From Malacoraja senta (taxonomy: Eukaryota), in the NCBI GenBank assembly GCA_038087875.1, contig CM075988.1, positions 26,414,001 through 26,478,000 on the forward strand: a stretch of DNA of 64,000 nucleotides, given 5' to 3'. Within the stretch, counting starts at the first letter, position 1; each line of letters opens with the position of its first letter. Below, in pieces: positions 7,806-64,000 of this stretch. The notes beneath the pieces were generated by a model. That model searched no databases. It saw only the letters and a list, made by a program, of their open reading frames with translations, and was not told the origin of the DNA. A program made the position numbers and the translations under genes.

Positions 7806-7975
7806 CGCCTTCTCTCCAGTGCCATTATAAGGGGAGTACAACCATTCCAGCTTGATGTTGCGCATATCAGTGTGTTCGTGGTAGTCAAACATGCAGTCTA
7901 ACCGTAGATCCTTTCCCTGTTTCACAACCAGGTACTCTGGGGTATAGATACTAACAGCTGAGACTGGCCAGACAT
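7806..7975 (-). CDS. JAML/MPZL-family Ig receptor, first half of the V-set domain
   Basis: [23 protein letters not shown]...IKLEWLY provides the B-strand Cys and C-strand Trp. TAG acceptor, GTGAGT donor, 170 bp, phase 1 to phase 0. Confidence 0.88.
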
Positions 7976-8014
7976 CTACAAGGTAAAAGAAACCATCTGA
8001 ACTTAGACATCGAC

Positions 8015-9425
8015 ATACAGTGACACACAGACAGTGACAGACAAACAGACAGTGGCAGACAGACAGTGACAGACAGACAGACAGTGACAGACAGATAGAC
8101 AGCGACAGACAGACAGACAGGGACAGACAGACAGCGATAGACAGACAGTGACAGACAGACAGCGACAGACAGCGACAGACAGGCAGTGACAGACTGACAG
8201 TGACAGACAGACAGTGACAGACGGACAGGGACAGAGACAGACAGACAGCGACAGACAGACAGCGACAGACAGACAGCGACAGACAGACAGCGACAGACAG
8301 ACAGCGACAGACAGACAGACAGTGACAGACAGTGGCAGACAGACAGTGACATACAGACAGTGACAGACAGACAGTGACAGACAGACAGACAGTGACAGAC
8401 AGACAGTGACAGACAGACAGTGGCAGACAGACAGTGGCAGACAGACAGTGACAGACAGACAGTGACAGACAGACAGTGACAGACAGACAGTGACAGACAG
8501 ACAGACAGTGACATACAAACAGACAGTGACATACAAACAGACAGTGACAGACAGACAGTGACAGACAGACAGACAGTGACAGACAGACAGACAGTGACAG
8601 ACAGACAGACAGTGACAGACAGACAGACAGACAGTGACAGACAGACAGACAGACAGTGACAGACAGACAGTGACAGACAGATAGCGACAGACAGGCAGTG
8701 ACAGACAGACAGACAGTGACAGACAGACAGACAGTGACAGACAGACAGTGACATACAAACAGACAGTGACAGACAGACAGTGACAGACAGTGACAGACAG
8801 ACAGACAGTGACAGACAGACAGACAGTGACAGACAGAGTGACAGACAGATAGCGACACAGACAGTGACAGACAGACAGTGACAGACAGACAGTGACAGAC
8901 AGACAGACAGTGACAGACAGACAGTGACATACAAACAGACAGTGACAGACAGACAGTGACAGACAGTGACAGACAGACAGACAGTGACAGACAGACAGAC
9001 AGTGACAGACAGACAGTGACATACAAACAGACAGTGACAGACAGACAGACAGTGACAGACAGACAGACAGTGACAGACAGACAGTGACATACAAACAGAC
9101 AGTGACATACAAACAGACAGTGACAGACAGACAGTGACAGACAGTGACAGACAGACAGACAGTGACAGACAGACAGACAGTGACAGACAGAGTGACAGAC
9201 AGACAGTGACAGACAGATAGCGACACAGACAGTGACAGACAGACAGTGACAGACAGACAGACAGTGACAGACAGACAGACAGTGACAGACAGAGTGACAG
9301 ACAGACAGTGACAGACAGACAGTGACAGACAGACAGACAGTGACAGACAGGCAGTGACAGACAGGCAGTGACAGACAGACAGACAGTGACAGACAGACAG
9401 ACAGTGACAGACAGACAGTGACAAA
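8015..9425. repeat. Compound (GACA)n/GACAGT microsatellite, ~1.4 kb, intronic
   Basis: Direct observation; it produces the spurious Cys/Leu/Ser/Val ORFs. Confidence 0.97.
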
Positions 9426-11439
9426 CATCGCAGAGTCGAGTTGAGCTGGGTTAATTTCCATCCAAGAGGATGCTGCACCAACTATCTGTAATTCTATTTA
9501 CAGGACACTTAAACCTCTTGATTCGAGTTCAGCCCGTGACTGACTCACGGATATCTCTTACTCTATATATAATATCCAAAACATGGTTAGCTTTCATCTC
9601 TTTCCATCCCCTGATACCGGATATACTGTATTTATGCACAATTATCACTCTGTAATTCACTCCTAAATGTTTATGAATTTATACAAGGAAGACAAAAATG
9701 CTGGAGAAACTCAGGTGAGGCAGCATCTATGGAGCGAAGGAATAGGTGACGTTTTGGGTCTAGACCCTTCCTCAGACTTTATGCATAAACCCCTGAGCTT
9801 CTCTATTACATTCTGTTTGGTAATATATTTAAGAGTATTTGTTATTAACAACCTGCTTCATTTCAAGTTATCTGTTATAATCCACTCACTCACCTTGATT
9901 CTAGCTGAGAACTTTTCATCATTCTATGTGTAAAGCAGACAAACGCCAACATTATATTCAGTAGCCCAGCCACAGATCTCCAGGCATAATCGCCCCAAAC
10001 CATCTTTAGATTCTAGCCTCTGGTCTTTGATGGACAAACTTGCAATTCCAGAGCATTGATGCAAAGTATCTTTTGAAGTGTTGTCACATTTCTCCCGGGG
10101 TCTGATAAATGACAGCTCACTCTATGTAACCAAGCGAGCATTGCTACTTTAATCTTGGGGATTTTAATTTTGCTAACATGTAACCCCCATGATATGGTGT
10201 TTGGTCACAGACCTGTGAAAGACCATATTAACCACATCAACAACACTACTCTTTACAATCCTCTTATTGTTCTTCTAAACATTCTATTAAATGAGTAAAG
10301 AGAATTAGTCTTGAACAAATTGGGACTGGCTTGGTGTACTTATTACTTAATTGAGAGTCAGCTTGGGATGTCCATGCCACCAGTACAGGAAGAAACAGAG
10401 ACAAACTCTAAAGTGGTGTTTGAAGCAGATACATTCGCAATGTTGAAGAGACATTTAGACAGGTACCTGAACAGGCAAGGAATAGAGGGATATAGATCAA
10501 GTGCAGGGAGATCGTGGTAGTTTAATTTGGTGTTATGGTCGCTGCTGACACAGTGGCCTTAAGGGTCTGTTCCTGTGATGTACTTTGCTATATGCCTTGT
10601 TCTCAATAGAATTTAAAGGCAGCTGAAATCTCCCTACATAGGCAGTACGTTTAGTTTCCAAATAAGGCTTTCTTTGAAGAAATATAATCACTCCTTGTTT
10701 TAACCTGAAGTACTTATTCACATTAAAAGTTAAATTGGTCTGCAGCGTGCTAGCTGTTGTTGGTAAAATTCAGGTGCATGCAATGGAAACTGCAGGTGGT
10801 TTGTGGTTGGGCAAGAGGAAGGGATTTTGTGAAGTGATTTCCCCTTTATTGTAAATTACTGCTGCAGCTCTGCAGTAAAGTGTTCAACTGTGTATGGTCA
10901 AAGTGTCCACATAATTACAATTGAGCAAGGATCCACCATCATGTGGCTGTCCGCAGTCAAGTGGGCTTTAAACCTAGCTCCTGAAGGTTCCCCATGGCTA
11001 AAGAGTTCAGAAAAAGGGAATGTGGCTGGCATTCAATACTGAGGGTTTAGGTCAGAGAGCAGGGGATAGTTGTGATGCTGTATAATAGGTTGGATACATG
11101 GTTACAGGGGAATGGGTAAAGGGATATGAGAATGGGCAGGTATGAATGAGAGGGGGGGGGGGTAACATGCTCACCCTGAGGTCAACATTACAGGTAAAGT
11201 CTAGTCCAACACACCATGTATTATACTGTACATGGATCCATGGAGCCCCCTTGCACTGATGCACCTTGGACTCCATTCCACCTGAGACACTAGAGTGGGG
11301 ATTTCATTGACTTCTCATTGGGATTGACAGATTCTGTGGCACTATTTGAAGGGTGGCTATGGAGATTTTGCCAACCGCCATTCATTCTTTAATCACTTGG
11401 TAGTGTTGTAGGTCGTGAGAAGTGTTATCTAAGGCTAGA

Positions 11440-28044: not shown

Positions 28045-28960
28045 CTTGAGTCCTTGTTATATTCCTGAGGGGGATATGTAAAGTTAATGTGTGAATTCAA
28101 ATGGTGTGTTTATAACTGTTGCATGTGGGCTGTCCTGCTTAATAAACCACTGCACAATGTCATGCATTGGCTTGGACAGACACACAATAGCCACAGACTG
28201 GTCTCATCTGAAGGATTACCTTTAAAACATTAACAATTTTAAAAGAATGGCAACCATGCATCAATTACAGCTGCCCCGAGGCTGCCTGAGGATTTTCTCA
28301 CAGTAGGACAATCTATTTATTATGGTCATTTATACAAACTGACAATTTTAAAATGATGTTAGGTGATGTACATTGAATGTTACCCAACTTAGTGTAGTTA
28401 CTTTGCATGATAGATCCCAAACATTGACCAGATGGCAACACCTTTATTATCAGACCAGTAACCCTGAAATAATCATTCAGATCCCACTATTATAGATATG
28501 GTACCTACTGTAGATTCACTAAATCTGAAAACAAGTCACATTAAAAGTGATTATGTAACCACAGCTCTCACAAAGCTAATACTTTGATCTCAATCCAACA
28601 CCCACTGCAATATGTTAAAGAAGGAACTGCAGATGCTGGAAAATCGAAGGTACACAAAAATGCTGGAGAAACTCAGCGGGTGCAGCAGCATCTATGGAGC
28701 GAAGGAAATAGGCAACGTTTCGGGCCGAAACTCTTCTTCAGACTGAAGAAGGGTTTTGGCCCGAAACGTTGCCTATTTCCTTCGCTCCATAGATGCTGCT
28801 GCACCCGCTGAGTTTCTCCAGCATTTTTGTGTAACCACTGCAATATGGTTGACTCTTAAAAGCTTTTGAAAGAACCCTTCAACCGATAATTATAAACACA
28901 CCATTTGAATTCACACATTAACTTTACATATCCCCCTCAGGAATATAACAAGGACTCAAG
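28045..28960. repeat. 71-bp perfect inverted repeat pair (28045-28115 / 28890-28960)
   Basis: CTTGAGTCCTTGTTATATTCC...GGTGTGTTTATAA and its reverse complement. Confidence 0.9.
28615..28834. mobile_element. Penelope-derived palindromic mini-element with 13-bp TSD
   Basis: Head-to-head PLE termini centred at ~28741, flanked by CCACTGCAATATG on both sides. Confidence 0.8.
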
Positions 28961-33335: not shown

Positions 33336-33560
33336 TAGGGCGGAGCCGGCGACTGACTGACTGCCTGCCAGTTGCAGCAGCCAATCGCAGGCGGCCGTGT
33401 GACCCCCCCGCCTCCTCTGGAGGGGCCGGGACAGCCAATTGGCGGAGGGGGCAGGGATGCGGCGGGCCAATCACACACTCTGCGTCAGCTCAGCTGCGGC
33501 TGCCATTGGCCGAGCAGTCGTCTGACCAATGACATCAGGATAGCGCCACCCGCGGCGCTC
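33335..33560 (-). promoter_or_regulatory. SC5D: SC5D CpG-island promoter with CCAAT boxes and an SRE-like site
   Basis: CCAAT/ATTGG at 33381, 33435, 33467, 33505 and 33526; ATCACACAC at 33470; GC box at 33338; CRE-like TGCGTCA and TGACATCA. Confidence 0.75.
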
Positions 33561-33564
33561 TTCA

Positions 33565-34692
33565 AGCACTGGGACAGGGGGCACTGGGACAGTGGTGGTG
33601 GGGGCACTGGGACAGGGGGCACTGGGACAGTGGCGGTGGGGGCACTGGGACAGGGGGCACTGGGACAGTGGCGGTGGGGGCACTGGGACAGGGGGCACTG
33701 GGACAGTGGCGGTGGGGGCACTGGGACAGGGGGCACTGGGACAGTGGCGGTGGGGGCACTGGGACAGGGGGCACTGGGACAGTGGCGGTGGGGGCACTGG
33801 GACAGTGGCGGTGGGGGCACTGGGACAGGGGGCACTGGGACAGTGGCGGTGGGGGCACTGGGACAGGGGGCACTGGGACAGTGGCGGTGGGGGCACTGGG
33901 ACAGGGGGCACTGGGACAGTGGCGGTGGGGGCACTGGGACAGTGGCGGTGGGGGCACTGGGACAGGGGGCACTGGACAGTGGCGGTGGGGGCACTGGGAC
34001 AGGGGGCACTGGGACAGTGGCGGTGGGGGCACTGGGACAGGGGGCACTGGGACAGTGGCGGTGGGGGCACTGGGACAGTGGCGGTGGGGGCACTGGGACA
34101 GGGGGCACTGGGACAGTGGCGGTGGGGGCACTGGGACAGTGGCGGTGGGGGCACAGGGACAGTGGCGGTGGCGGCATTGGGACAGGGGGCACTGGGACAG
34201 TGGCGGTGGCGGCATTGGGACAGTGGCGGTGGGGGCACTGGGACAGTGGCGGTGGGGGCACAGGGACAGTGGCGGTGGCGGCATTGGGACAGTGGCGGTG
34301 GGGGCACTGGGACAGTGGCGGTGGGGGCACTGGGACAGGGGGCACTGGGACAGTGGCGGTGGGGGCACTGGGACAGTGGCGGTGGGGGCACTGAGACAGT
34401 GGCGGTGGGGGCACTGGGACAGTGGCGGTGGTGGCATTGGGACAGGAGGCACTGGGACAGTGGCGGTGGGGGCACTGGGACGGGGCACTGGGACAGTGGC
34501 GGTGGGGGCACTGGGACAGTGGCGGTGGGGGCAGTGGGACAGGGGGCACTGGGACAGTGGCGGTGGCGGCATTGGGACAGGAGGCACTGGGACAGTGGCG
34601 GTGGGGGCACTGGGACGGGGCACTGGGACAGTGGCGGTGGGGGCACTGGGACAGTGGCAGTGGCGGCACTGGGACAGGAGGCACTGGGACAG
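33565..34692. repeat. G-rich minisatellite (GGGGGCACTGGGACA / GGGGGCACTGGGACAGTGGCGGT units)
   Basis: Direct observation; ~1.1 kb of alternating 15- and 23-bp units. Confidence 0.97.
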
Positions 34693-35006
34693 GTAAATGG
34701 TAGCAAATTGAGGAATGCAGTTGAACAGAGGGATCTAGGAATAACTGTGCATAGTTCCCTGAAGGTGGAATCTCATGTAGATAGGGTGGTAAAGAAAGCT
34801 TTTGGTGTGCTGGCCTTTATAAATCAGAGCATTGAGTATAGAAGTTGGGATGTAATGTTAAAATTGTACAATGCATTGGTGAGGCCAATTCTGGAGTATG
34901 GAGTACAATTTTGGTCGCGTAATTATAGGAAAGATGTCAACAAAATAGAGAGAGTACAGAGGAGATTTACGAGAATCTTGCCTGGGTTTTAGCACCTAAG
35001 TTACAG
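34693..35006 (+). mobile_element. CR1 LINE fragment running into the assembly gap
   Basis: EQRDLGITVHSSLK...LVRPILEYGVQFW. Confidence 0.88.
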
Positions 35007-49921: not shown

Positions 49922-51220
49922 GTTCAAGTTCAAGTTCAAGTGAGTTTATTGTTATGTGTCCCTGATAGGACAATGAAATTCTTGCTTTGCATAGTAGGCA
50001 TTTACTACAAAACAGATCAGTGTGTCCATATACCATAATATAAATATATACACACATGAATAAATAAACTGATCAAGTGAAAATAACAGATAATGGGTTA
50101 TTAATAATCAGAGTTTTGTCCGAGCCAGGTTTAATAGCCTGATGGCTGTGGGGAAGTAGCTATTCCTGAACTTGGTTGTTGCCGTCTTCAGGCTCCTGTA
50201 TCTTCTACCTGAAGGTAGCAGGGAGATGAGTGTGTGGCCAGGATGGTGTGGGTCTTTGATGATACTGCCAGCCTTTTTGAGGCAGCGACTGCGATAAATC
50301 CCCTCGATGGAAGGAAGGTCAGAGCCGATGATGGACTAGGCAGTGTTTACTACTTTTTGTAGTCTTTTCCTCTCCAGGGCGCTCAAGTTGCCGAACCAAG
50401 CCACGATGCAACCGGTCAGCATGCACTCTACTGTGTACCTGTAGAAGTTAGAGAGAGTCCTCCTTGACAAACCGACTCTCCGTAATCTTCTCAGGAAGTA
50501 GAGGCGCTGATGAGCTTTCTTGATAATTGCATTAGTGTTCTCGGACCAGGAAAGATCTTCAGAGATGTGCACGCCCAGGAATTTGAAGCTCTTGACCCTT
50601 TCAACCATCGACCCGTTGATATAAATGGGACTGTGGGTCCCCATCCTACTCCTTCCAAAGTCCACAATCAGTTCCTTGGTTTTGCTGGTGTTGAGGGTCA
50701 GGTTATTGTGCTGGCACCATATGGACAGTTGCTCGATCTCTCTTCTGTACTCTGACTCATCCCCATCAGTGATACGTCCCACAACAGTGGTGTCGTCAGC
50801 GAACTTGATGATGGAGTTCGCACTGTGACCGGCTAAGCAGTCATGAGTAAAGAGTGAGTACAGCAGGGGGCTGAGCACGCAGCCTTGAGGTGCTCCCGTG
50901 CTGATTGTTATCGAGGCTGACACATTTCCACCAATACGAACAGACTGTGGTCTGTGAATGAGGAAGTCGAGGATCCAATTGCAGAGGGATGCGCAGAGAC
51001 CCAGTTCTGCGAGTTTGGTAACCAGCTTGGAGGGGATGATTGTGTTAAATGCCGAGCTGTAATCGATGAATAACAGCCTGACATATGAGTTTTTGTTGTC
51101 CAAGTGGTCCAGAGCGGAGTGGAGGGCCAGTGAGATCGCATCCATCGTTGATCTGTTGTGGCGGTAAGCGAACTGCAGTGGGTCCAGGTTTTTGTCGAGG
51201 TAGGAGTTGATTTGCTCCAT
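49922..51220 (-). mobile_element. Rex1/Babar-clade LINE, 5'-truncated (RT and 3' end)
   Basis: [14 protein letters not shown]...[15 protein letters not shown]...KFADD; (CTTGAA)n tail at 49922-49940. Confidence 0.9.
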
Positions 51221-51804
51221 TATCCAAGATCAACCATGAATACAAGAGACACAATAAAAAGCAGAGGAAAAAATACTGTAGTTTTACATAAATATAATCT
51301 ATTAAATATATTATGCAGACTTGCACATGTACAGGCAGTCCACAGGTTCTGTGAGAGTTCCATTCCTGAGCATTGTCCATAAGCCGATTTCTCCAGTCAG
51401 AAACATACATTTTCTGTAGTTACCCATATTGTTCATACAGTTGTTAGAATTATTTTCTTGATTTTTTTTATTGCACATGTAGCAAGATATAAAGCTTTGT
51501 GTGCTATCCAGGCAAATTATGCCATAATTTCTCACGGTAATGTAAGAGGAAAAGAAACAAAATGCAGAATAAAGTGTTATATCTTCAGAGAAGGTGCAAA
51601 ATAAGTGTAAGGGCTGCAACAAGATAGTTCAGGAGATCAGGAATTCATCCTTGGCGTCTGAGAGATAAATTCAAGAGTGTGAAAACAGTGGGAAAGATGC
51701 TGTTCTTGAATCTAGTGATATGTGCTTTCAAGCCTCTGTATCTGCTGCCTGAGAGAGGAGGGAGAAGAGAGAATGACCAGGCTATGTGCGGTTCTTGAAT
51801 GTGT

Positions 51805-55045: not shown

Positions 55046-56112
55046 GGTACCTGGATGTGGCGCCGACCGACGAGAAGCCGAAGCAAAGAAGTGGAAGCCA
55101 AATAACCGAATGGAAACGAGGCCGAAACACCAAATAACCGAAAGTGTACGAAGCCGAAACGCCAACTAACCGAAAGAGTGGGACGCCTAAATGCAAACTA
55201 ACCGAAAGGGCAGGACGCCTAAAAGCCAACTAACCGAAAGGCTGCGTCGCCTAAAAGCAAACTTACCGAATGGCCGCTCTGCCGAAACGCCACCTACCCA
55301 AAAGGCGGCGTCGTCTTACAAGCCAACGAACCGAATGCCGCTCAACAGAAAAGTCAAATAACGGACGTGACATTGCCGGGGGCGGGACTTGTCAGCGATT
55401 GGTCCAGACCCCCGCGTCCATCACATCACTGTGGAGGGAGACGAGGCGGAGGGTGGCCGTGGGAGAGTGGGGGCTGTCCCGAGGGATGCGCTCCTTCGGC
55501 CGCTTACAACTTGGTGCTTGGGTTCAGATTGCCCAGTCACCTATGGCTTGTGTGGGGAAATGACCCCCACCTTCCCGTCTCCACCGGTGGGAGGGTGGGG
55601 TCATTTTCCCCACACAAGCCATAGGTGACTGGGCAATCTGAACCCAAGCACCAAGTTGTAAGCGGCCGAAGGTGCGCATCCCTCGGGACAGCCCCCACAC
55701 TCCTACGGCACCCTCTGCGGGCTGTGGGTCGGGTGGAGCAGAGGTTTTGGACAATGTTCATCCCTCCACAGTGATGTGATGGACACGGGGGTCTGGACCA
55801 AGTCCCGCCCCCCGGCCACGTCATGTCCGTTATTTGACTTTTCTGTTGAGCGGCATTCGGTTCGTTGGCTTGTAGGCGACGCCGCCTTTCGGGTAGGTGG
55901 TGTTTCGGCAGAGCGGCCATTCGGTAAGTTTGCATTTAGGCGTCCCACCCTTTCAGTTAGTTGGCGTTTCGGCTTCGTTTCCATTCGGTTAGTTGCCGTT
56001 TCGGCTTCGTTTCCATTCGGTTATTTGGCGTTTCGGCTTTGTTTCCATTCGGTTATTTGGCTTCCACTTCTTTGCTTCGGCTTCTCATCCGTCGGCGCCA
56101 CGTCCGCACACG
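55046..56112. mobile_element. Foldback/Mutator-like element (near-complete palindrome, 9-bp TSD)
   Basis: Long inverted arms meet near 55585; modular AACCGAA subrepeats; CCTTTGGAC duplicated at 55037-55045 and 56113-56121. Confidence 0.85.
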
Positions 56113-56602
56113 CCTTTGGACACTGAAGATGTAATTTTAGGTTCAGTTTTATGATGCTCTTCATATGGCACTGGGTTCATTTTGATTTTGTGATAAGGCA
56201 TTGTAAATGTTGAGAATAATCCAGAAGTGCATCATTAGAAAGGCTTTGACACACTCTCATGTTTTAATATCATGTTCAGAGACTGCAGACCTGAGGAAGG
56301 GTGCATACCTGAAACATCACCCATCCTTATTCTCCAGAGGTGCTGCCTGACCCGCTGAGTTCCCCCAGCACTTTGTGTCTATTAACGTGGTTAAGAAGGC
56401 ATGTGGAATGCTGGACTTCATTAGTGGCAGCACTGAATACAAGAGCAGGAAGGTCATGCTCCAACTTTATAAAACATTGGAAAGAGCTCAATTTAATTAC
56501 TATGTGCAGTTGTATATACATGTAAAATTACAATATATAGGTGTTGGTTAGAGTGTAGGAATCATTTATGTTTATTAGAAGTGAATACAAATTAATGAAC
56601 GT

Positions 56603-56807
56603 ACACAAAAATGCTGGAGAAACTCAGCGGGTGCAGCAGCATCTATGGAGCGAAGGAAATAGGCAATGTTTCAGGCCGAAACCCTTGGGGTTTCGGCCCG
56701 AAACATTGCCTATTTCCTTCGCTCCATAGATGCTGCTGCACCCGCTGAGTTTCTCCAGCATTTTTGTGTACCTTCGATTTTCCAGCATCTGCAGTTCCTT
56801 CTTTAAC
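56603..56807. mobile_element. Penelope-derived palindromic mini-element with 16-bp TSD
   Basis: Inverted PLE termini; ACAAATTAATGAACGT at 56587-56602 and 56808-56823. Confidence 0.8.
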
Positions 56808-57940
56808 ACAAATTAATGAACGTTAGTTTAAGTAAAGGGGTAAGAAATTTAGAGGGGATTTGAAGGAGACAATTTCACTGATTGGGATGAATGCAGGTTG
56901 GCTTGGACCTGATGGTTGAATGGTTTGTTTTCATGCTGCATGACTATCACAACATCTAACATGGTATTCATTTGAAGAGAGGATTATAAATATAATGAAT
57001 CAGCATATGGCGTGAAAATGTATTTATCCCCTATGCTGACCTCTGATGGAAAATCAAGGGAAAATTATGAGACCTTTAGGTAGACAATTGTCAATATAGT
57101 CCAAGTATATATTTGGAGGATGGGTGGAGTCTGACACCACCTCTTCTTTCCTAACCTCACTAGCCCTTTACCCAGTTTCTTTCATCTTTCTCCCAGCTGG
57201 TTCCATTCCTACACAACCTACAAGGTCTCAAATCTTCCCACCCACACTGGTTCATCTGCATGCTCATTATCCCTCCCTTTTTAGTTCCACTTTATCACCT
57301 TATAAAATTCCAGAATCTGCGGCCCTTTGGTGTCTTCAATTATGACCTTCCAGCCTATTTATTTACCTCCCTCCTTCATATCCGGTTCCATCTGCCCATA
57401 ATTCCCTTCCTCACCTCTTTATACTGATGATCTGTCCTCTCCGCACTCTATCTTGATGCAGGGTCTTGACCCAAAACATTGAATATCCCTCTGCCTGCAC
57501 AAATGCTGCCCGTCCTACTGAGTTCCTCCAGCAGTTTATTTTTTGCTCAAGGTATGTTGTTGGCCTTTAAATGTGAACACTCCTGTTTTGAAGGGAACTA
57601 AGTGCATTTTTAATTTAATCTCCAATATTTTAAAAAGATACAATGCTGTAGATCTTGTTTCTTTATAATCTCAGAACTACTTACTACAGTGGGTGTTGTA
57701 AATCACTTCAAAGCATATAAGATTTACACACATCTTTAATCAGCACATTAACTTGGCAGCATTACCAAACGAGGTGTTGTCAGTTCATCCTGGCTGCTTC
57801 AACTAACGGTGCTGGGAATGGGCGTTAGTATAAATGTCATAATGGGGTGGAGTTAGTGATGCTAGCTAAGTGTGATTGATTCACATGCATCATCAATCTA
57901 CATCCTTCCCCCTAAAGATTAAATGTGGAGAGGAAGCATA

Positions 57941-59600
57941 TTAAACATACTCGCCATACCTGTCTGGTGGTCTACTAACACGGCCCGAACGCGTGCGGAC
58001 CCAACCATCCCCTCCCTCAACTGAAGGATTAGGCGGAGAGGCTGAAGGTGAAAACCGCACGGGAGAGGATTGTGGTGACCGAGGGGGGAAACATGCGGTG
58101 GGTGAAACCCCGTGGTTAGTGGAGACAGATGGACGTGGGGGGGTGCCAGGCATGCGGGGACGGGCGGGAGACATTGCGGAAGGCGGCTGGAACTGGAGCG
58201 GCGGAGCATAGGGATCAGCAGGCGGTGGTTGGGGCTCCTTCACAGCAAGCAGGTGTTGTCGACTTCTCTGGTAAACCGCTCCCTCACAGTCCACAAGGTA
58301 CGATCGCGGCTCATCAGTCGGGCGCACAACAATGCCCAGACGAGAATGTCCAGTTGGAGTTCGTAGACGAACGACCTGGCCCGGCAGTAGAGGCTGGAGT
58401 GGTCTGCTGGAACTGTCGTATGACCGTTTTTGGATATCGTGCTTCTCTTGGAGACGTTGCTGGATAGTGGCGGGCTTCAACACCCGAGGAACCAGCCGCT
58501 GTTGTGCGATGGGGACCGGAGACCTTGTCGCCCTCGACAGCAGCCGCTGTGCTGGTGACCCCAAGATTCCGTCTCTTGCGGTGTTTCTGAGATTCAGTAG
58601 ATCGAGATAGACGTCAGACTTTGAAATGCGCCCTCCCGCCAGCAAGTGCTTGGCGCTTCTGACAGCGCGTTCAGCGAGTCCATTACTCTGTGGATATTCG
58701 GGACTGCTTGTGACGTGCTGGAAGTTCCATCGGTCGGCGAAAAGCTTGAACAAGTGGCTGGTGAACTGTGGACCATTGTCGGTTCTCAGAATAACAGGAA
58801 TGCCATGGTCTGCGAAATGTCTTTTCAGCTTCCTGATGACCATCTCCGACGTGAGGAAGGTCAGTTGGTCAAGTTCAAACCAGTTGGAGAACGAGTCGAC
58901 CAGAACGAGGTAGTGCTTACCGCACCATTCGAAAATGTCCGCAGCCAGCGACGACCATGACAGTGCTGGTGGAGGTTGTTGCAGAAGGGGTTGCCGCTGC
59001 TGATGAGGTGCAAGATTGTTGCAACTGGGGCAGGAGGCTACGCGGTCCCGGATGTATGTGGCCATTCCGGGCCAGTAGAACAGATCCCGGGTGCGTGCCA
59101 GTGTGGAGTCAGCTCCTGGGTGACCGTTGTGTACCTCTTTGAAGTATTCGTCTTGTAGCGATGCAGGTACAACTACCTTGTGGCCCTTGACGACCACACC
59201 ATCCTGAACCACCAGTTCATCGCGGACCAAGAAGTACGGCTGCACCTCTGTGGGCGTGTTGGATTGTTTGTCTGGCCAGCCTGTTTTGATGATGGACGAG
59301 AGGGCTTGAAGCGTATCATCCTTGGGAGTGTGCGCGGCCAGGGTGCGCAGTTGCTGGAGACTAGACCGAAACCGAGAACCATGAAATTCTCCCGTTCGTG
59401 TGGGTGTTGTTCGCAAGATGATCGAGGGGCACGAGAGACGGTGTCAGCAACATGCATGTCCTTGCCCTTTGTGTAGGTAATAGAAAAGTCGTACCACTGC
59501 AGCTGCATCATCATGCGCTGCAAACGAGTTGGGGCGGCGTGGATAGGCTTGTTCAAGATTGTCATCAGTGGTTGGTGGTCCGTCTCAACCATGAACGTGT
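57941..59600 (-). CDS. pol: Gypsy pol remnant: RNase H end (frameshifted) plus integrase
   Basis: ETDHQPL RNase H motif; integrase HHCC (HNGH...CPSC) and D,D35E (AADIF, TDNG, AERAV). Confidence 0.9.
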
Positions 59601-59601
59601 T

Positions 59602-59626
59602 GTGTGGGTTCGTATCCCACTCCTGA
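59602..59626 (+). other. tRNA-Leu 3'-arm-derived fragment at the internal junction of the LTR element
   Basis: GTGGGTTCGTATCCCACTCCTGA versus vertebrate tRNA-Leu(CAG) GTGGGTTCGAATCCCACTCCTGA (recalled); the single mismatch is at position 58. Confidence 0.75.
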
Positions 59627-59729
59627 ATGTGTGTAAATCTTATATGCTTTGAAGTGATATACATGGCGTCAGAAATGGTCCTATCCACTCCTCTTGTATA
59701 ACGGTTTTTTATTTTATCTTTTGTGAGTT

Positions 59730-60752
59730 TTGCTTTACTTTACGATGGCTAATTCTTGTCGGAAGCCTGAGCCTCTTGTCTTTGATGCCGATATCAGCGA
59801 ACGGTGGGCCACGTTTGAAATTGATTACCAGCACTACATGAACATTGTACACCGAAATGAACCAGATGCTGTTAAGGCCTCTCTCCTGCTCAACCTTGCG
59901 GGACCTGGTGCCCTTCATCGATCCAGAATATTCCGTTATGCTCCGGCTATCCGTGATGCCAATGACCAGGTAATTACACCGGCGGAGTCTCCTACTGACC
60001 CTAATGTTTTGCTGCGTAAACTGGCTCAGATCTGTGACCTGCCCTCAAATCACATTTTAGACAGGGCAAGGTTTTTCTCTCGTCGTCAACTTCCCGGGGA
60101 ACGAGTGGACTCATTTATTTCTTCTTTAATGTATCTAGTCCAACGTAGTCGATTTCAAGAAATGCCATTGGATCAGTTGACTGATCAGTTAACGAGGGAT
60201 ATTTTAGTGAATGGTATCACCGATCAAAAGCTCAGATCAGAGCTCCTGAGACGGCCAGAGTTATTGCTAGATGACGCGGCGCATGCATGCAGAACGGCTG
60301 AACTTGTTGATCCTATAGACATTTCGCATGAAAGCAATACCATCAATCTGACGGGCCTCACTAGGCAGCGGACATACACAGATAACAGCCGATCTAAGAT
60401 CCAAGCTAGCCAGGCAGCTCTCAGCGTTCCTCCACAGAAATGTCCTAACTGCGGCTATATACACAACAGGCAATCCACCTGCCCCGCCCTCGGGAAGGCT
60501 TGTAATTACTGCAAAAAGCTAAATCACTTTGCCTCAGCCTGTCGGGCTGCTATCAGGGCCCGAGGAAAGAATGCGCCCAGTCCCAAGTCTAATCTCAATT
60601 TTTTGCAACGAGACAGCAACACACTGACTCCTCACTTCCAGCTCGAAGCCGCCCCCGAATATATTCCATTTGACTCGCAAGACGACCCTACTGTTTACAT
60701 GTTACAGCATGCTGCTGCCAAGAACTCTGATCCCACTTCTGACACCATGTAA
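59730..60752 (+). CDS. gag: Gypsy gag with two Cys/His knuckles, inverted relative to the LTRs and pol
   Basis: Open 340-aa frame with RARFFSRRQLPGERVDSFISSL, RDILVNGI, CPNCGYIH...C and CNYCKKLNHFASAC. Confidence 0.9.
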   Translation: MLYFTMANSCRKPEPLVFDADISERWATFEIDYQHYMNIVHRNEPDAVKASLLLNLAGPGALHRSRIFRYAPAIRDANDQVITPAESPTDPNVLLRKLAQICDLPSNHILDRARFFSRRQLPGERVDSFISSLMYLVQRSRFQEMPLDQLTDQLTRDILVNGITDQKLRSELLRRPELLLDDAAHACRTAELVDPIDISHESNTINLTGLTRQRTYTDNSRSKIQASQAALSVPPQKCPNCGYIHNRQSTCPALGKACNYCKKLNHFASACRAAIRARGKNAPSPKSNLNFLQRDSNTLTPHFQLEAAPEYIPFDSQDDPTVYMLQHAAAKNSDPTSDTM

Positions 60753-61799
60753 ATCACTTCAAAGCATATAAGATTTACACACATCTTTAATCAGCACATT
60801 AACTTGGCAGCATTACCAAACGAGGTGTTGTCAGTTCATCCTGGCTGCTTCAACTAATGGTGCTGGGAATGGGCGTTAGTATAAATGTTATAATGGGGTG
60901 GAGTTAGTGATGCTAGCTAAGTGTGATTGATTCACATGCATCATCAATCTACAGGTGTGACTTTATATAGTCAATTATAAATCTCCAGGAACCATTTGGC
61001 TTATCAACCTGCTATACGCATGAGTGATTTATTAAAGCCACTGGGTGCAGTACTCCCTGTTGTAACATATTTATAAAACCAAGAAGAATTCAGCTTATTT
61101 TAGAAACCTTTATTTGTGGCTTTGGATGGTGGCCATCTATGACTATCTCATCCATCATCCAGCCACAGTTGTGATTATGTATGTCAAAAGCAGGATTCCC
61201 CAGTCTGTATGAATGTATGCCTTGACAGAAACTTACACTGATATCTCCCCTAATTTGCCCATTTGCTAATTGCAGCAATTTACTGAATTAAATGCAACAT
61301 TACACTATCACATCAGAGCCAAGCATGCGTCAATTTCTGGGTGTGTATTTACTAATGTTGAGGATAACAATCCCAATTTTCAAATCTAAATTTTAGTTCA
61401 TCAGTTCTGGATCCTTTCTGTGAATGGTCAGAAACAATAGCCTGTTTAGTTTGCCACAATTACCCCAAGGGTGTGTTGAGAGTGGTGTAAAACACTCTAG
61501 TATTTCAAAAATATTTGCCAGGACTATCTCTTTCCTTCCACTAGAGTTTGTTTTATGCAATTGCATTTGGTGCTACTTACCCATATAAGAGAGCCTGACA
61601 CCATCCTGCTCTTAGACTTGGGTCCAGGAGCTGATGCTACCGAGAGTTAGGGCTCTGATTGGGTCCATGAAGATGTACAGTACATGTTCTTTACTTTGGT
61701 AATAAAGGTCTTTCCTTTATAAAGAGTATGATGCAATGAGATAAAGTTATATTATTAAATTTAAATTGTTTATTAAGTTCTGATAGGCATAGATAGGAT

Positions 61800-64000
61800 C
61801 TAAGATGGCGCCTACTCGCTGTGACATTTTGCCAGTGGCACAACAGAAAATCTTCAAATATAGTATTTTTGAACTCACCTGCATCAAAGAATCTGCAGAA
61901 ATCAACTTTGTAAGTAGCGAGCTGCTAAAGCATTTAACTGCATTAGCGCTACTGCGAACTCCCGAAGATAGCGACGGTAAGAGAATCCCCGAACGGAAGG
62001 GAATCCCCGATCTCGCGGAGGCGCGCAGGTATAGTAAGTACTGTACCTGTAAACACCGGGGAGGTCTTCATGGAGTACGGAACCGTGGTAGTTGGGCAGG
62101 ACCACAAGTAAGACTGAAGTGTAGGGGACTTCGGCCCCCTCTTCCTACCATCCTACTGGCCAACGTACAGTCACTAGAAAACAAAGTGGAGAAGTTAAGG
62201 ACAAGGCTGCTTTACCAAAGGGAGCTGAGGGAATGCTCTGTGTTCTGTTTCACAGAGACATGACTCACCCCCAGCTCCCCAGACTCACCAGTCCAGCCTG
62301 AAGGGTTCTCCATCCACCGTATGCACCATACGCAGGCATCTGGGAAAGGGAGAGGAGGGGGCGTCTGCCTCATGGTCAACTCTGCGTGGTGCTCAGACGT
62401 GGCATTCCTATCCAACTCCTGCTCTTCACACCTCGAAAATCTGGCGGTGAAGTGCCGTCCCTTCTACCTACCGAGGGAATTCTCCTCCATCATCCTGACT
62501 GTGGTCTACATCCCACCCCAGGCAGACATCCGTCTGGCACTGGAGCTGCACGCCGTGGTCAACCAGCCGGGAACTTCAACAGAACCAACCTTAAGAAATC
62601 GCTCCCTAACTTCCACCAACATGTCTCCTGCAGCACCAGAGGACCAAACACCCTCGACCACTGCTATACGACCATCAAGGATGCCTATCGCTCTATCCCT
62701 CGCCCTCACTTCGGTAAATCCGACCATACCGCGGTGCTGCTTCTTCCTGCCTACAGGCAGCAATTGAAGAGCGCATCCCCAGAGATGAGGACTGTACAGA
62801 GCTGGTCGGGGAGGGGGGCGGGGGGGGGCACAGGAACAACTCCAGGACTGTTTGGAGTCAGCAGACTGGGCAATGTTCAAGGACTCGGTAACGGACCTGA
62901 ATGAATTTGCCACAGTCGTTACAGACTTCATAAAGAAATGTGTGGAGACTGCATCCCAACAAAAACCTTCCGAGTGTTTCCTAACCAGAAGCCTTGGATG
63001 AACCATGAGATCTGCATTCTTCTGAAGACCAGATCCCGGGCATTCAGGTCTGGAGATACAGAGGTCTACAAGAAGTCCAGATACGACCTTGGTAAGGCCA
63101 TCAAAAAGGCCAAAAGGGACCTGCTCCAAGCTGGAGGATGAGACGGATGTTCAGCAACTGTGGCGGCGCTTAAATGCAATCACCTCGCAGCTCAAATGTC
63201 AGCGATGCATCACTCCCTGACGAGCTCAATGCATTTTATGCACACTTTGATAGGGAGAACACTGATGTGCCTTCCCGAGCACCCATTCACCGTGATGATA
63301 TTTCGGTCACAGTCACAGAGGCCGACGTCAGAAGATCCTTCAGGGGGGGTGAATCCTCAGAAGCGCCTGAACCTGATGGTATGCCCGGGCATGTTTTAGA
63401 AACCCGTGCAGACCAACTGGCTGGAGTTTTTACAGACATTTTCAACCTCTCACTTTTGAGGTCTGAGGTTCCCACCTGCTTTAAAAGGGCATCAATAATA
63501 CCCAGTGCCCAAGAAGAGCAAGGTGACGTGCCTCAATGACTATCGACCAGTGGCACTAACGCCTGTGGTGATGAAGTGCTTTGAGAGGCTGATCATGGCG
63601 CAAATCAACTCATACCTCGACAAAAACCTGGACCCACTGCAGTTCGCTTACCACCACAACAGATCAACGGTGGATGCGATCTCACTGGCTCTCCACTCCG
63701 CTCTGGACCACTTGGACAACAAAAATGTCAGGCTGTTATTCATTGACTACAGCTCGGCGTTTAATACCATCATCCCCTCCAAGCTGGTTACCAAGCTCTC
63801 AGATCTGGGTCTCTGCGCATCCCTCTGCAATTGGATCCTCGACTTCCTCATTCACAGACCACAGTCTGTCAGTATTGGTAGAAATGTGTCATCCTCGATA
63901 ACAATCAGCACAGGAGCACCTCAAGGCTGCGTGCTCAGCCCCCTGCTGTACTCACTCTATACTCATGACTGCGTAGCCGGACATAGTGCGAACTCCATCA
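61800..64000 (+). mobile_element. Rex1/Babar-clade LINE, 5' part (endonuclease and RT start, frameshifted), continuing beyond the window
   Basis: [57 protein letters not shown]. Confidence 0.9.

What the first reader, a model, noticed from the sequence alone, without database searches (positions are those of the whole stretch)
59602..60747. Two tRNA-Leu copies at the rearrangement junctions, one ending at and one misreading m1A58
Seen: 60730-60747 is ATCCCACTTCTGACACCA, exactly the last 18 nt of tRNA-Leu including CCA. It ends at position 59, whereas the internal PBS matches only ~11 nt. At the other junction, 59604-59626 matches a different Leu isodecoder (..CACTCCTGA), extends through the T-loop and has A>T at position 58. 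Established: retroviral-type plus-strand strong-stop synthesis halts at m1A58, and RT read-through of m1A causes misincorporation. Inference: the genome preserves a record of repeated aberrant strand transfers involving two primer tRNAs, including the signature of a tRNA modification.
Basis: partly seen in the sequence, partly recalled or inferred. Interest (0 to 1): 0.85.

Follow-up and report, generated by a model that had tools for sequence, protein, structure and literature searches.

The report
Retrotransposon copies record host tRNA modifications
This broken jumping gene carries two pieces of host leucine tRNA at its breakpoints, and the genome holds hundreds of similar copies whose tRNA pieces are misread or cut off at the same three positions, which likely record chemical marks on the tRNA and would let those marks be read from a genome sequence.

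Summary
Observation confirmed, and it is not a one-off. The locus is a young minus-strand Ty3/Gypsy element (206-bp LTRs, 5-bp target duplication) with gag inverted. 60730-60747 is tRNA-Leu nt 59-76, in the primer-site position; 59604-59626 is nt 49-71 with T58. All 13 host Leu gene-like loci with a 3' half have A58, and intact copies lack the insert. Genome-wide, 493 hits match this T-arm; 148 of 157 inspected are tRNA+CCA fused to an LTR, with 154 different junctions. Position 58 is non-A in 175 of 493 (neighbouring 59: 5 of 323). The variable-loop C is changed in 75 of 96 and G37 in 5 of 6 spliced copies, and copies tend to end just 3' of both sites; these match m1A58, m3C-e2 and m1G37. In this family 34 of 66 copies with a tRNA-type primer site have an 18-nt tRNA copy plus an inverted segment starting at ATCC, scattered over the LTR tree. 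Best reading (inferred): plus-strand strong-stop DNA mis-primes on the element's RNA, like L1 twin priming. The window's second, internal tRNA piece is unique in the sample. The steps are known singly; ten literature searches found no genomic report.

The parts
57692..57696 (.). target-site duplication, left copy (GGTGT)
57697..57902 (-). 3' LTR, 206 bp, TG...CA, 2 differences from the 5' LTR
57903..57913 (-). polypurine tract next to the 3' LTR
   Evidence: read from the sequence
57914..59602 (-). pol remnant: end of RNase H and integrase (PF17921, PF00665); protease, RT and most of RNase H are absent (about 1.5 kb lost)
59604..59626 (+). internal copy of tRNA-Leu nt 49-71 (C67, Leu-CAG type), T in place of A58 at 59613
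   Evidence: junction found only here and in the duplicate contig C6105
59627..59663 (+). last 37 nt of the LTR, inverted relative to the element; one difference from both flanking LTRs
59664..59678 (+). family-type primer-binding site inside the inverted segment, 13 of 15 nt complementary to tRNA-Leu
59679..60729 (+). 5' leader and truncated gag (ATG at 59745; two CCHC-like motifs), inverted relative to the LTRs and pol
60730..60747 (+). tRNA-Leu nt 59-76 including CCA, in the primer-site position of the minus-strand element; 60730-60733 (ATCC) also matches gag
60748..60953 (-). 5' LTR, 206 bp
60954..60958 (.). target-site duplication, right copy (GGTGT)

Best explanation
This is a Gypsy retrotransposon copy with an inverted gag and two host tRNA-Leu pieces, integrated as one unit, and it likely arose when reverse transcriptase copied its primer tRNA and then primed at the wrong place. 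Steps. (1, established for retroviruses, inferred here) Plus-strand strong-stop DNA copies the LTR and 18 nt of primer tRNA-Leu and halts before m1A58. (2, shown) The family primer site pairs with only 15 nt, so the last three copied bases have no partner at the correct landing site. (3, inferred) The free 3' end pairs instead with ATCC on a sense-strand template, probably the element's RNA ahead of the unfinished minus strand, and copies it backwards. Here it runs through gag, the primer site and 37 nt of LTR. (4, inferred, least certain) The polymerase switches to a second tRNA-Leu, or to a read-through copy of one; reading through m1A58 puts in a wrong base (T58 in tRNA sense). (5, inferred) The strand joins the stalled minus strand in RNase H, both strands are completed, and integrase inserts the product with a 5-bp duplication. 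The same enzymes read through the primer in hundreds of other insertions, misreading or stopping at m1A58, the variable-loop m3C and m1G37.
For: Anatomy and target duplication. Map on an intact copy used only as a ruler: 1-221, then 1279 back to 170, then 2775 to the end. Base at 58 genome-wide: A 318, T 110, G 48, C 17; non-A at 59: 5; Fisher p 8e-38. 148 of 157 inspected loci end in CCA+TG, with 154 distinct junctions. Variable-loop C changed in 75 of 96 (T 59, A 11, G 5) while 13 of 13 gene-like loci have C. G37>T in 5 of 6 intron-less copies. Ends: 33 of 85 copies stop 1-2 nt 3' of the loop C; 26 of 101 that pass the loop stop at nt 38. These are the mutation and stop sites reported for tRNA-Leu (PMC5066629; PMC11417395). 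Family sample: 34 of 66 are 18/19-nt plus inversion; 20 start at the only 6-nt complement of the tail in the element and 10 at a second ATCC site. Each has its own second junction, and the hotspot label is scattered on the LTR tree (17 changes, shuffled mean 17.4). The return point lies 3' of the inversion start in 29 of 31 (chance 0.60, p 3e-5) and within about 20 nt of it in 4 of 31 (p 7e-5). 15 of 17 assessable inverted copies have a target duplication.
Against: No modification was measured in this host. The commonest donor (Leu-CAA, AAC loop, G57) has no exact gene among the 15 loci found; the two AAC genes have A57, so the gene set is incomplete. Variable-loop m3C is reported for Leu-CAG, not Leu-CAA, in the passages read, yet most copies here are CAA-type. 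Two of 31 return points lie 5' of the inversion start. Three inverted segments (window, L299, L322) run into the LTR end, which RNase H should have removed on a primed RNA; this needs a second RNA or a DNA template. No other copy among the 66 has an internal tRNA piece, so step 4 rests on one locus. The order of the switches cannot be read from the product.
Confidence: 0.8

Rival explanations
1. Same ingredients, different route for the internal tRNA. A second reverse-transcription intermediate was an ordinary read-through product (LTR, long tRNA copy, pol), and the backwards-running strand recombined into it at tRNA nt 71, in the same particle or a later round.
For: Read-through copies joined collinearly to pol are common in the family (8 of 66), several joining near the window's return point of 2775 (2506, 2650, 2753, 2840). 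There is no microhomology at the LTR/tRNA joint.
Against: No separate parent with the same pol/tRNA junction is assembled (only the window and its duplicate contig), so it would have to occur within one particle. It then differs from the best reading only in step 4.
Confidence: 0.35
2. The odd bases are not misreadings. They come from unassembled tRNA isodecoder genes or from later mutation.
For: The main donor gene is not among those found. C>T is the commonest later mutation.
Against: All three alternative bases occur at 58 and at the loop C, in three loop backgrounds. Position 59 changes in 5 of 323. The loop C is not in a CpG. Copies also stop at these sites. Copies carry CCA and lack the intron, so they come from mature tRNA.
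Confidence: 0.07
3. A few rearranged master elements with a perfect 18-nt primer site were amplified and then lost sequence, so the inversions are not repeated errors.
For: 20 of 34 inversions start at one site; a perfect primer site could help a non-autonomous copy.
Against: Second junctions differ in every unlinked copy; identical pairs share their flanks and are local duplicates. The hotspot class needs at least 7 origins on well-supported branches and shares identical LTRs with normal copies. The hotspot is the single best complement of the tail.
Confidence: 0.08
4. The rearrangement happened after integration (break repair that captured tRNA cDNA) or is an assembly error.
For: No read-level confirmation of the window's joints was obtained.
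Against: Matching target duplication and LTRs 99% alike; the same structure in a second contig, 99.87% over 4.6 kb with flanks; dozens of analogous copies whose tRNA piece always begins at CCA next to the LTR.
Confidence: 0.03

Closest known systems
Retroviral plus-strand strong-stop at m1A58 (HIV-1; PMC8599865, PMC13191261, passages read)
   Same: 18-nt copy of the primer ending before A58; minor read-through products that stop at later modified bases.
   Different: Those papers treat products past nt 54-55 as unable to transfer or integrate. Here read-through products reaching nt 38, and in one case the whole tRNA, are integrated with target duplications in hundreds of inherited copies.
Deletions from errors in strand transfer (Pulsinelli and Temin 1991, J Virol 65:4786; title seen in a reference list; text not available, content recalled)
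   Same: Strong-stop DNA lands at a wrong internal site and deletes sequence 3' of the primer site.
   Different: Vector experiment in cultured cells. Here the commonest outcome of the 18-nt product is an inversion on the sense strand at a microhomology hotspot, fixed in the germline.
L1 twin priming (Ostertag and Kazazian 2001; recalled, not read)
   Same: Topology: a second DNA end primes internally on the RNA, copies towards the 5' end, and is joined to the stalled first cDNA, giving an inversion with a deletion.
   Different: LTR element with integrase. The internal primer is the element's own tRNA-copied plus-strand end, not a target DNA end.
RT signatures of m1A, m3C and m1G in tRNA sequencing (PMC4787781, PMC5066629, PMC11417395; passages read)
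   Same: Misincorporation plus stops at nt 58, the variable loop and nt 37 of tRNA-Leu.
   Different: Made in vivo by the element's RT and stored in chromosomal DNA; points to a loop mark on Leu-CAA, which those passages list only for Leu-CAG and Ser.
Ty3/Gypsy (Metaviridae) LTR retrotransposons
   Same: LTRs, target duplication, primer site, polypurine tract, RT-RNase H-integrase order.
   Different: This copy is non-autonomous and rearranged. The clade (a Mag-like look is recalled) was not tested.

Membership tests
Ty3/Gypsy LTR retrotransposon | Direct terminal repeats TG...CA with a 4-6 bp target duplication | tested here: met
   206-bp LTRs, 2 differences, GGTGT duplication
Ty3/Gypsy LTR retrotransposon | pol order RT, RNase H, integrase | tested here: met
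   Relative L046: RVT_1 131-259, RT_RNaseH 323-454, integrase 563-722; no Pfam protease hit. The window keeps only the RNase H end and integrase
Ty3/Gypsy LTR retrotransposon | tRNA primer-binding site after the 5' LTR and polypurine tract before the 3' LTR | tested here: met
Ty3/Gypsy LTR retrotransposon | Gag with capsid and CCHC knuckles | tested here: inconclusive
   No Pfam hit; atlas look-alikes are Gag / zf-CCHC clusters at 0.96; CCHC-like motifs visible
Mag clade | RT phylogeny with reference elements | not tested
   Resemblance is recalled only
tRNA-derived SINE | 5' tRNA head with both promoter boxes followed by a shared body | tested here: not met
   Only 3' parts ending in CCA, fused to many different LTRs; 154 distinct junctions in 157 loci
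tRNA gene | Complete cloverleaf without encoded CCA | tested here: not met
   ARAGORN finds none in the window or in 30 of 30 hits
L1 twin priming | Target-primed insertion by a LINE | tested here: not met
   LTRs and 5-bp duplication; it works like twin priming but is not an L1 product
L1 twin priming | Inversion starts at a microhomology; sense part resumes at or 3' of that point | tested here: met
   ATCC sites; 29 of 31 resume 3', 4 of 31 within about 20 nt
m1A58 / m3C-e2 / m1G37 RT signature | Site-specific misincorporation and stops against unmodified neighbours | tested here: met
m1A58 / m3C-e2 / m1G37 RT signature | Signal lost after demethylation or in a methyltransferase mutant | not testable with these tools
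   Needs host RNA

The most novel reading that the evidence does not exclude
Animal genome assemblies hold an unread fossil tRNA-seq. Gypsy reverse transcriptases routinely read through their primer and integrate the product, so the sites of germline tRNA base methylation (m1A58, variable-loop m3C, including an unreported one on Leu-CAA, and m1G37) can be read from DNA and roughly dated by LTR divergence. In families whose primer site is shorter than 18 nt, a twin-priming-like inversion by the plus-strand end is a main outcome of replication.
Probability: 0.6. Interest if true: 0.85.

Novelty: new variant of a known kind. Interest (0 to 1): 0.72.

Why it matters
It gives in vivo, germline evidence on a point that the HIV literature still calls unresolved: whether m1A58 is the plus-strand stop and what becomes of products that pass it. 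Here they do integrate. It offers a way to detect tRNA methylation sites from genome sequence alone, with a testable prediction (a variable-loop mark on Leu-CAA). It identifies a frequent route by which LTR elements make dead, inverted copies, tied to a primer site shorter than the copied tRNA, which bears on copy-number control. It also matters for annotation: one full-length copy is called a tRNA gene by ARAGORN.

Tried and rejected
tRNA gene in the window: none. T58 SINE or T58 host gene: rejected. Insert as normal pol: rejected, 6 of 6 intact copies lack it. Separate parent with the same junction: none assembled. Single master for the hotspot inversions: rejected by the LTR tree. Other internal tRNA pieces: none among 66 family copies; the two 12-mer hits were an unrelated insert and the facing primer copy of L299. 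L299 and L322, which also run into the LTR end, show no tRNA at that joint. Telling apart the templates of the gag, pol and LTR parts by nearest intact copy was inconclusive (all 96-98%). Read check: two contig sets from one study cover the family but show no joint across the window's junctions, so they neither confirm nor refute them. The per-position value at 58 is inflated by how the sets were chosen and was not used; the G>A there at V-9 comes from the choice of reference isodecoder. Literature: ten searches found no report of this in genomes; subscription and older papers are not covered and no supplements were read. The scan's earlier findings gave nothing similar apart from one loosely related note.

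Full report
Anatomy. The finding lies in an LTR element on the minus strand: LTRs at 57697-57902 and 60748-60953 (206 bp, 2 differences), a GGTGT duplication on both sides and a purine tract beside the 3' LTR. The minus-strand ORF has integrase domains. An intact relative shows RT, RNase H, integrase in Gypsy order; intact copies are about 4.7 kb. Mapped on one such copy, used only as a ruler, the window element reads 1-221, then 1279 backwards to 170, then 2775 to the end. So gag, the primer site and the last 37 nt of the LTR are inverted, and about 1.5 kb of pol is lost. The same locus, flanks included, is assembled a second time in contig C6105 (99.87% over 4600 nt). G000 is a 1.94-Gb genome; I did not identify the organism.

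The observation. Host tRNA-Leu genes were found with a recalled D-arm motif: 10 exact hits, 15 with up to two mismatches. Thirteen are gene-like with a 3' half; one lacks it and one is LTR-linked. All 13 have A58 and a C before TGGAG-type sequence in the variable loop. 60730-60747 matches nt 59-76 exactly. 59604-59626 matches nt 49-71 of C67-type Leu-CAG with the single change A58>T; chance expectation 2.4e-5. Six of six intact copies lack the insert; their pol matches the window up to 59602. The 18-mer stands where the primer site belongs, and its ATCC end also matches gag. The family's own site pairs with the tRNA over 15 nt and then diverges.

Genome-wide read-through. The T-arm pattern has 428 hits with A or T at 58 (control 0), 110 of them T, and 65 more with G (48) or C (17, counted from the listing). 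Non-A at 59 gives 5 hits. So 175 of 493 differ at 58 against 5 of 323 at 59 (p 8e-38); about eight of the A hits are genes. I inspected 176 locus records from four searches; after dropping repeats and three gene or gene-like loci, 157 remained. 148 end in CCA followed by TG of an LTR, from many LTR families, with 154 distinct junctions. The loop C is changed in 75 of 96 copies that span it (T 59, A 11, G 5). Six intron-less copies cross the anticodon loop and five have G37>T; the one full-length copy, L085, keeps G37. Of 85 copies not chosen for length, 33 end 1-2 nt 3' of the loop C; of 101 that pass the loop, 26 end at nt 38. Human and zebrafish tRNA sequencing report mutation and stop signals at m1A58, m1G37 and m3C47d/e2 of tRNA-Leu, the last for Leu-CAG (PMC5066629 and PMC11417395, passages). 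m1A gives both arrest and misincorporation (PMC4787781, abstract and passages). That the sites here are these marks is inference.

Not confined to this genome. A metagenome scan gave 30 loci, about 17 distinct, of tRNA-Leu read-through + CCA + TG; 27 have A58 and 3 T58. Five of the 30 have Gypsy-like coding sequence within 400 nt. Their CAA loop lacks the C and shows no such spread of bases, which fits the reading.

The family's usual fault. LTR end plus tRNA-type site has 208 hits; LTR end plus the variant site has 36. I examined 71 of the 208 in listing order (30 with 1.5 kb, 41 with about 5 kb) and dropped 5 local duplicates. Of 66: 34 have an 18/19-nt tRNA copy followed by an inverted segment, 10 read through, 14 start normally (10 with 15 nt, 4 with 18 nt), 3 are collinear deletions, 5 other. 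One of the 14, L299, is in fact an inverted copy seen from its inner site. Twenty inversions start at the only 6-nt complement of the tail in the element, ten at a nearby ATCC, four at other ATCC-type sites. The sense part resumes 3' of the inversion start in 29 of 31 with a visible return (p 3e-5) and almost at it in 4 (p 7e-5). Fifteen of 17 assessable copies have target duplications. On an LTR tree the hotspot class needs 17 changes (shuffled mean 17.4; at least 7 forced, bootstrap not fully settled), so these are repeated events. Read-through copies are mostly collinear: 8 of 10 in the family (p 3e-4 against the 18-nt class) and 102 collinear, 19 inverted, 36 uncalled of 157 overall.

Mechanism. 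Shown: structure, integration as a unit, mature-tRNA origin, site-specific changes and stops, microhomology, independence. Inferred: the plus-strand strong-stop DNA halts before m1A58 with three bases that cannot pair at the 15-nt site, primes on sense RNA ahead of the unfinished minus strand, copies backwards, and is joined to the stalled minus strand. This has the topology of L1 twin priming (recalled). In the window the backwards copy crossed the primer site into the LTR end, as in L299 and L322, which suggests a second, uncut RNA or a DNA template. It then picked up nt 71-49 of a C67 tRNA with A58 misread. That piece is unique: no other among the 66, and its junction occurs only in the window and its duplicate. 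Whether it came straight from a tRNA or through a read-through intermediate cannot be decided.

Against. No modification was measured. The main donor isodecoder is missing from the genes found. The loop mark is not reported for Leu-CAA in what I read. Two return points break the 3' rule. 'Two tRNAs' rests on one base. The pattern searches need exact matches, so older copies are under-counted and family shares are approximate. The joints were not confirmed in reads.

Known and new. The m1A58 stop and minor read-through products are known in HIV-1, where products past nt 54-55 are said not to transfer or integrate (PMC8599865, PMC13191261, passages). Strand-transfer deletions are known from vectors (Pulsinelli and Temin 1991, title only). 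PMC12789967 and PMC9278108 (passages) added nothing on tRNA capture. Ten searches found no report of a genomic record of this kind, but the library lacks most subscription and older papers and I read no supplements.

Verdict. Real, correctly read by the first stage, and one case of a genome-wide phenomenon. New variant of a known kind; interest 0.72.

Noticed in passing
L085 (G000:C4936:178234, minus): A complete, intron-less tRNA-Leu-CAA with CCA lies between an LTR start and Gypsy pol sequence: a full-length primer copy. ARAGORN calls it a tRNA gene.
   Followed up: partly
L310 (G000:C2:61507350-61512900): Tandem miniature elements: LTR, 18-nt tRNA copy, about 110 nt of 3' sequence, LTR. A TRIM-like product of the same mis-transfer.
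   Followed up: no
L299, L322, L287 and the window: Backwards copies that reach the 5' end stop at LTR position 165, about 180, 207 (first base of the primer site) and 170; two end beside the polyadenylation signal at 163-168. This may mark the RNA 5' end or RNase H cuts.
   Followed up: partly
L123, L198, L190, L050, L189: Copies with a doubled tRNA piece or a fold-back of their own LTR and tRNA tail, i.e. repeated re-priming.
   Followed up: no
L237, L289, L302, L312: Correctly transferred copies that inherited the 18-nt tRNA copy in place of the 15-nt family site.
   Followed up: partly
L083, L084 (G000:C7:13402204, 13461245): The two Leu-CAA genes with the AAC loop have A57, whereas the many AAC-type copies (selected for G57) have G57; their donor gene seems to be missing from the set found.
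   Followed up: partly
L257, L263, L267, L271 (metagenome loci): The sequence upstream of the tRNA copy repeats the start of the adjoining LTR, a fold-back junction.
   Followed up: no
window 61793-64000, 50336-51229: Degraded LINE-like reverse-transcriptase coding sequence in two inverted copies, 93-96% alike; family not tested.
   Followed up: no
window 55053-56105: Large imperfect palindrome built from 32-nt tandem units around a 121-nt hairpin.
   Followed up: no
window 7945-9500 and 33532-34800: Long minisatellites (14-nt and 15/23-nt units) that create long spurious open frames.
   Followed up: no
window 28613-28844, 56597-56808: Head-to-head pairs of an abundant short interspersed repeat forming near-perfect 88-91 nt palindromes.
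   Followed up: no
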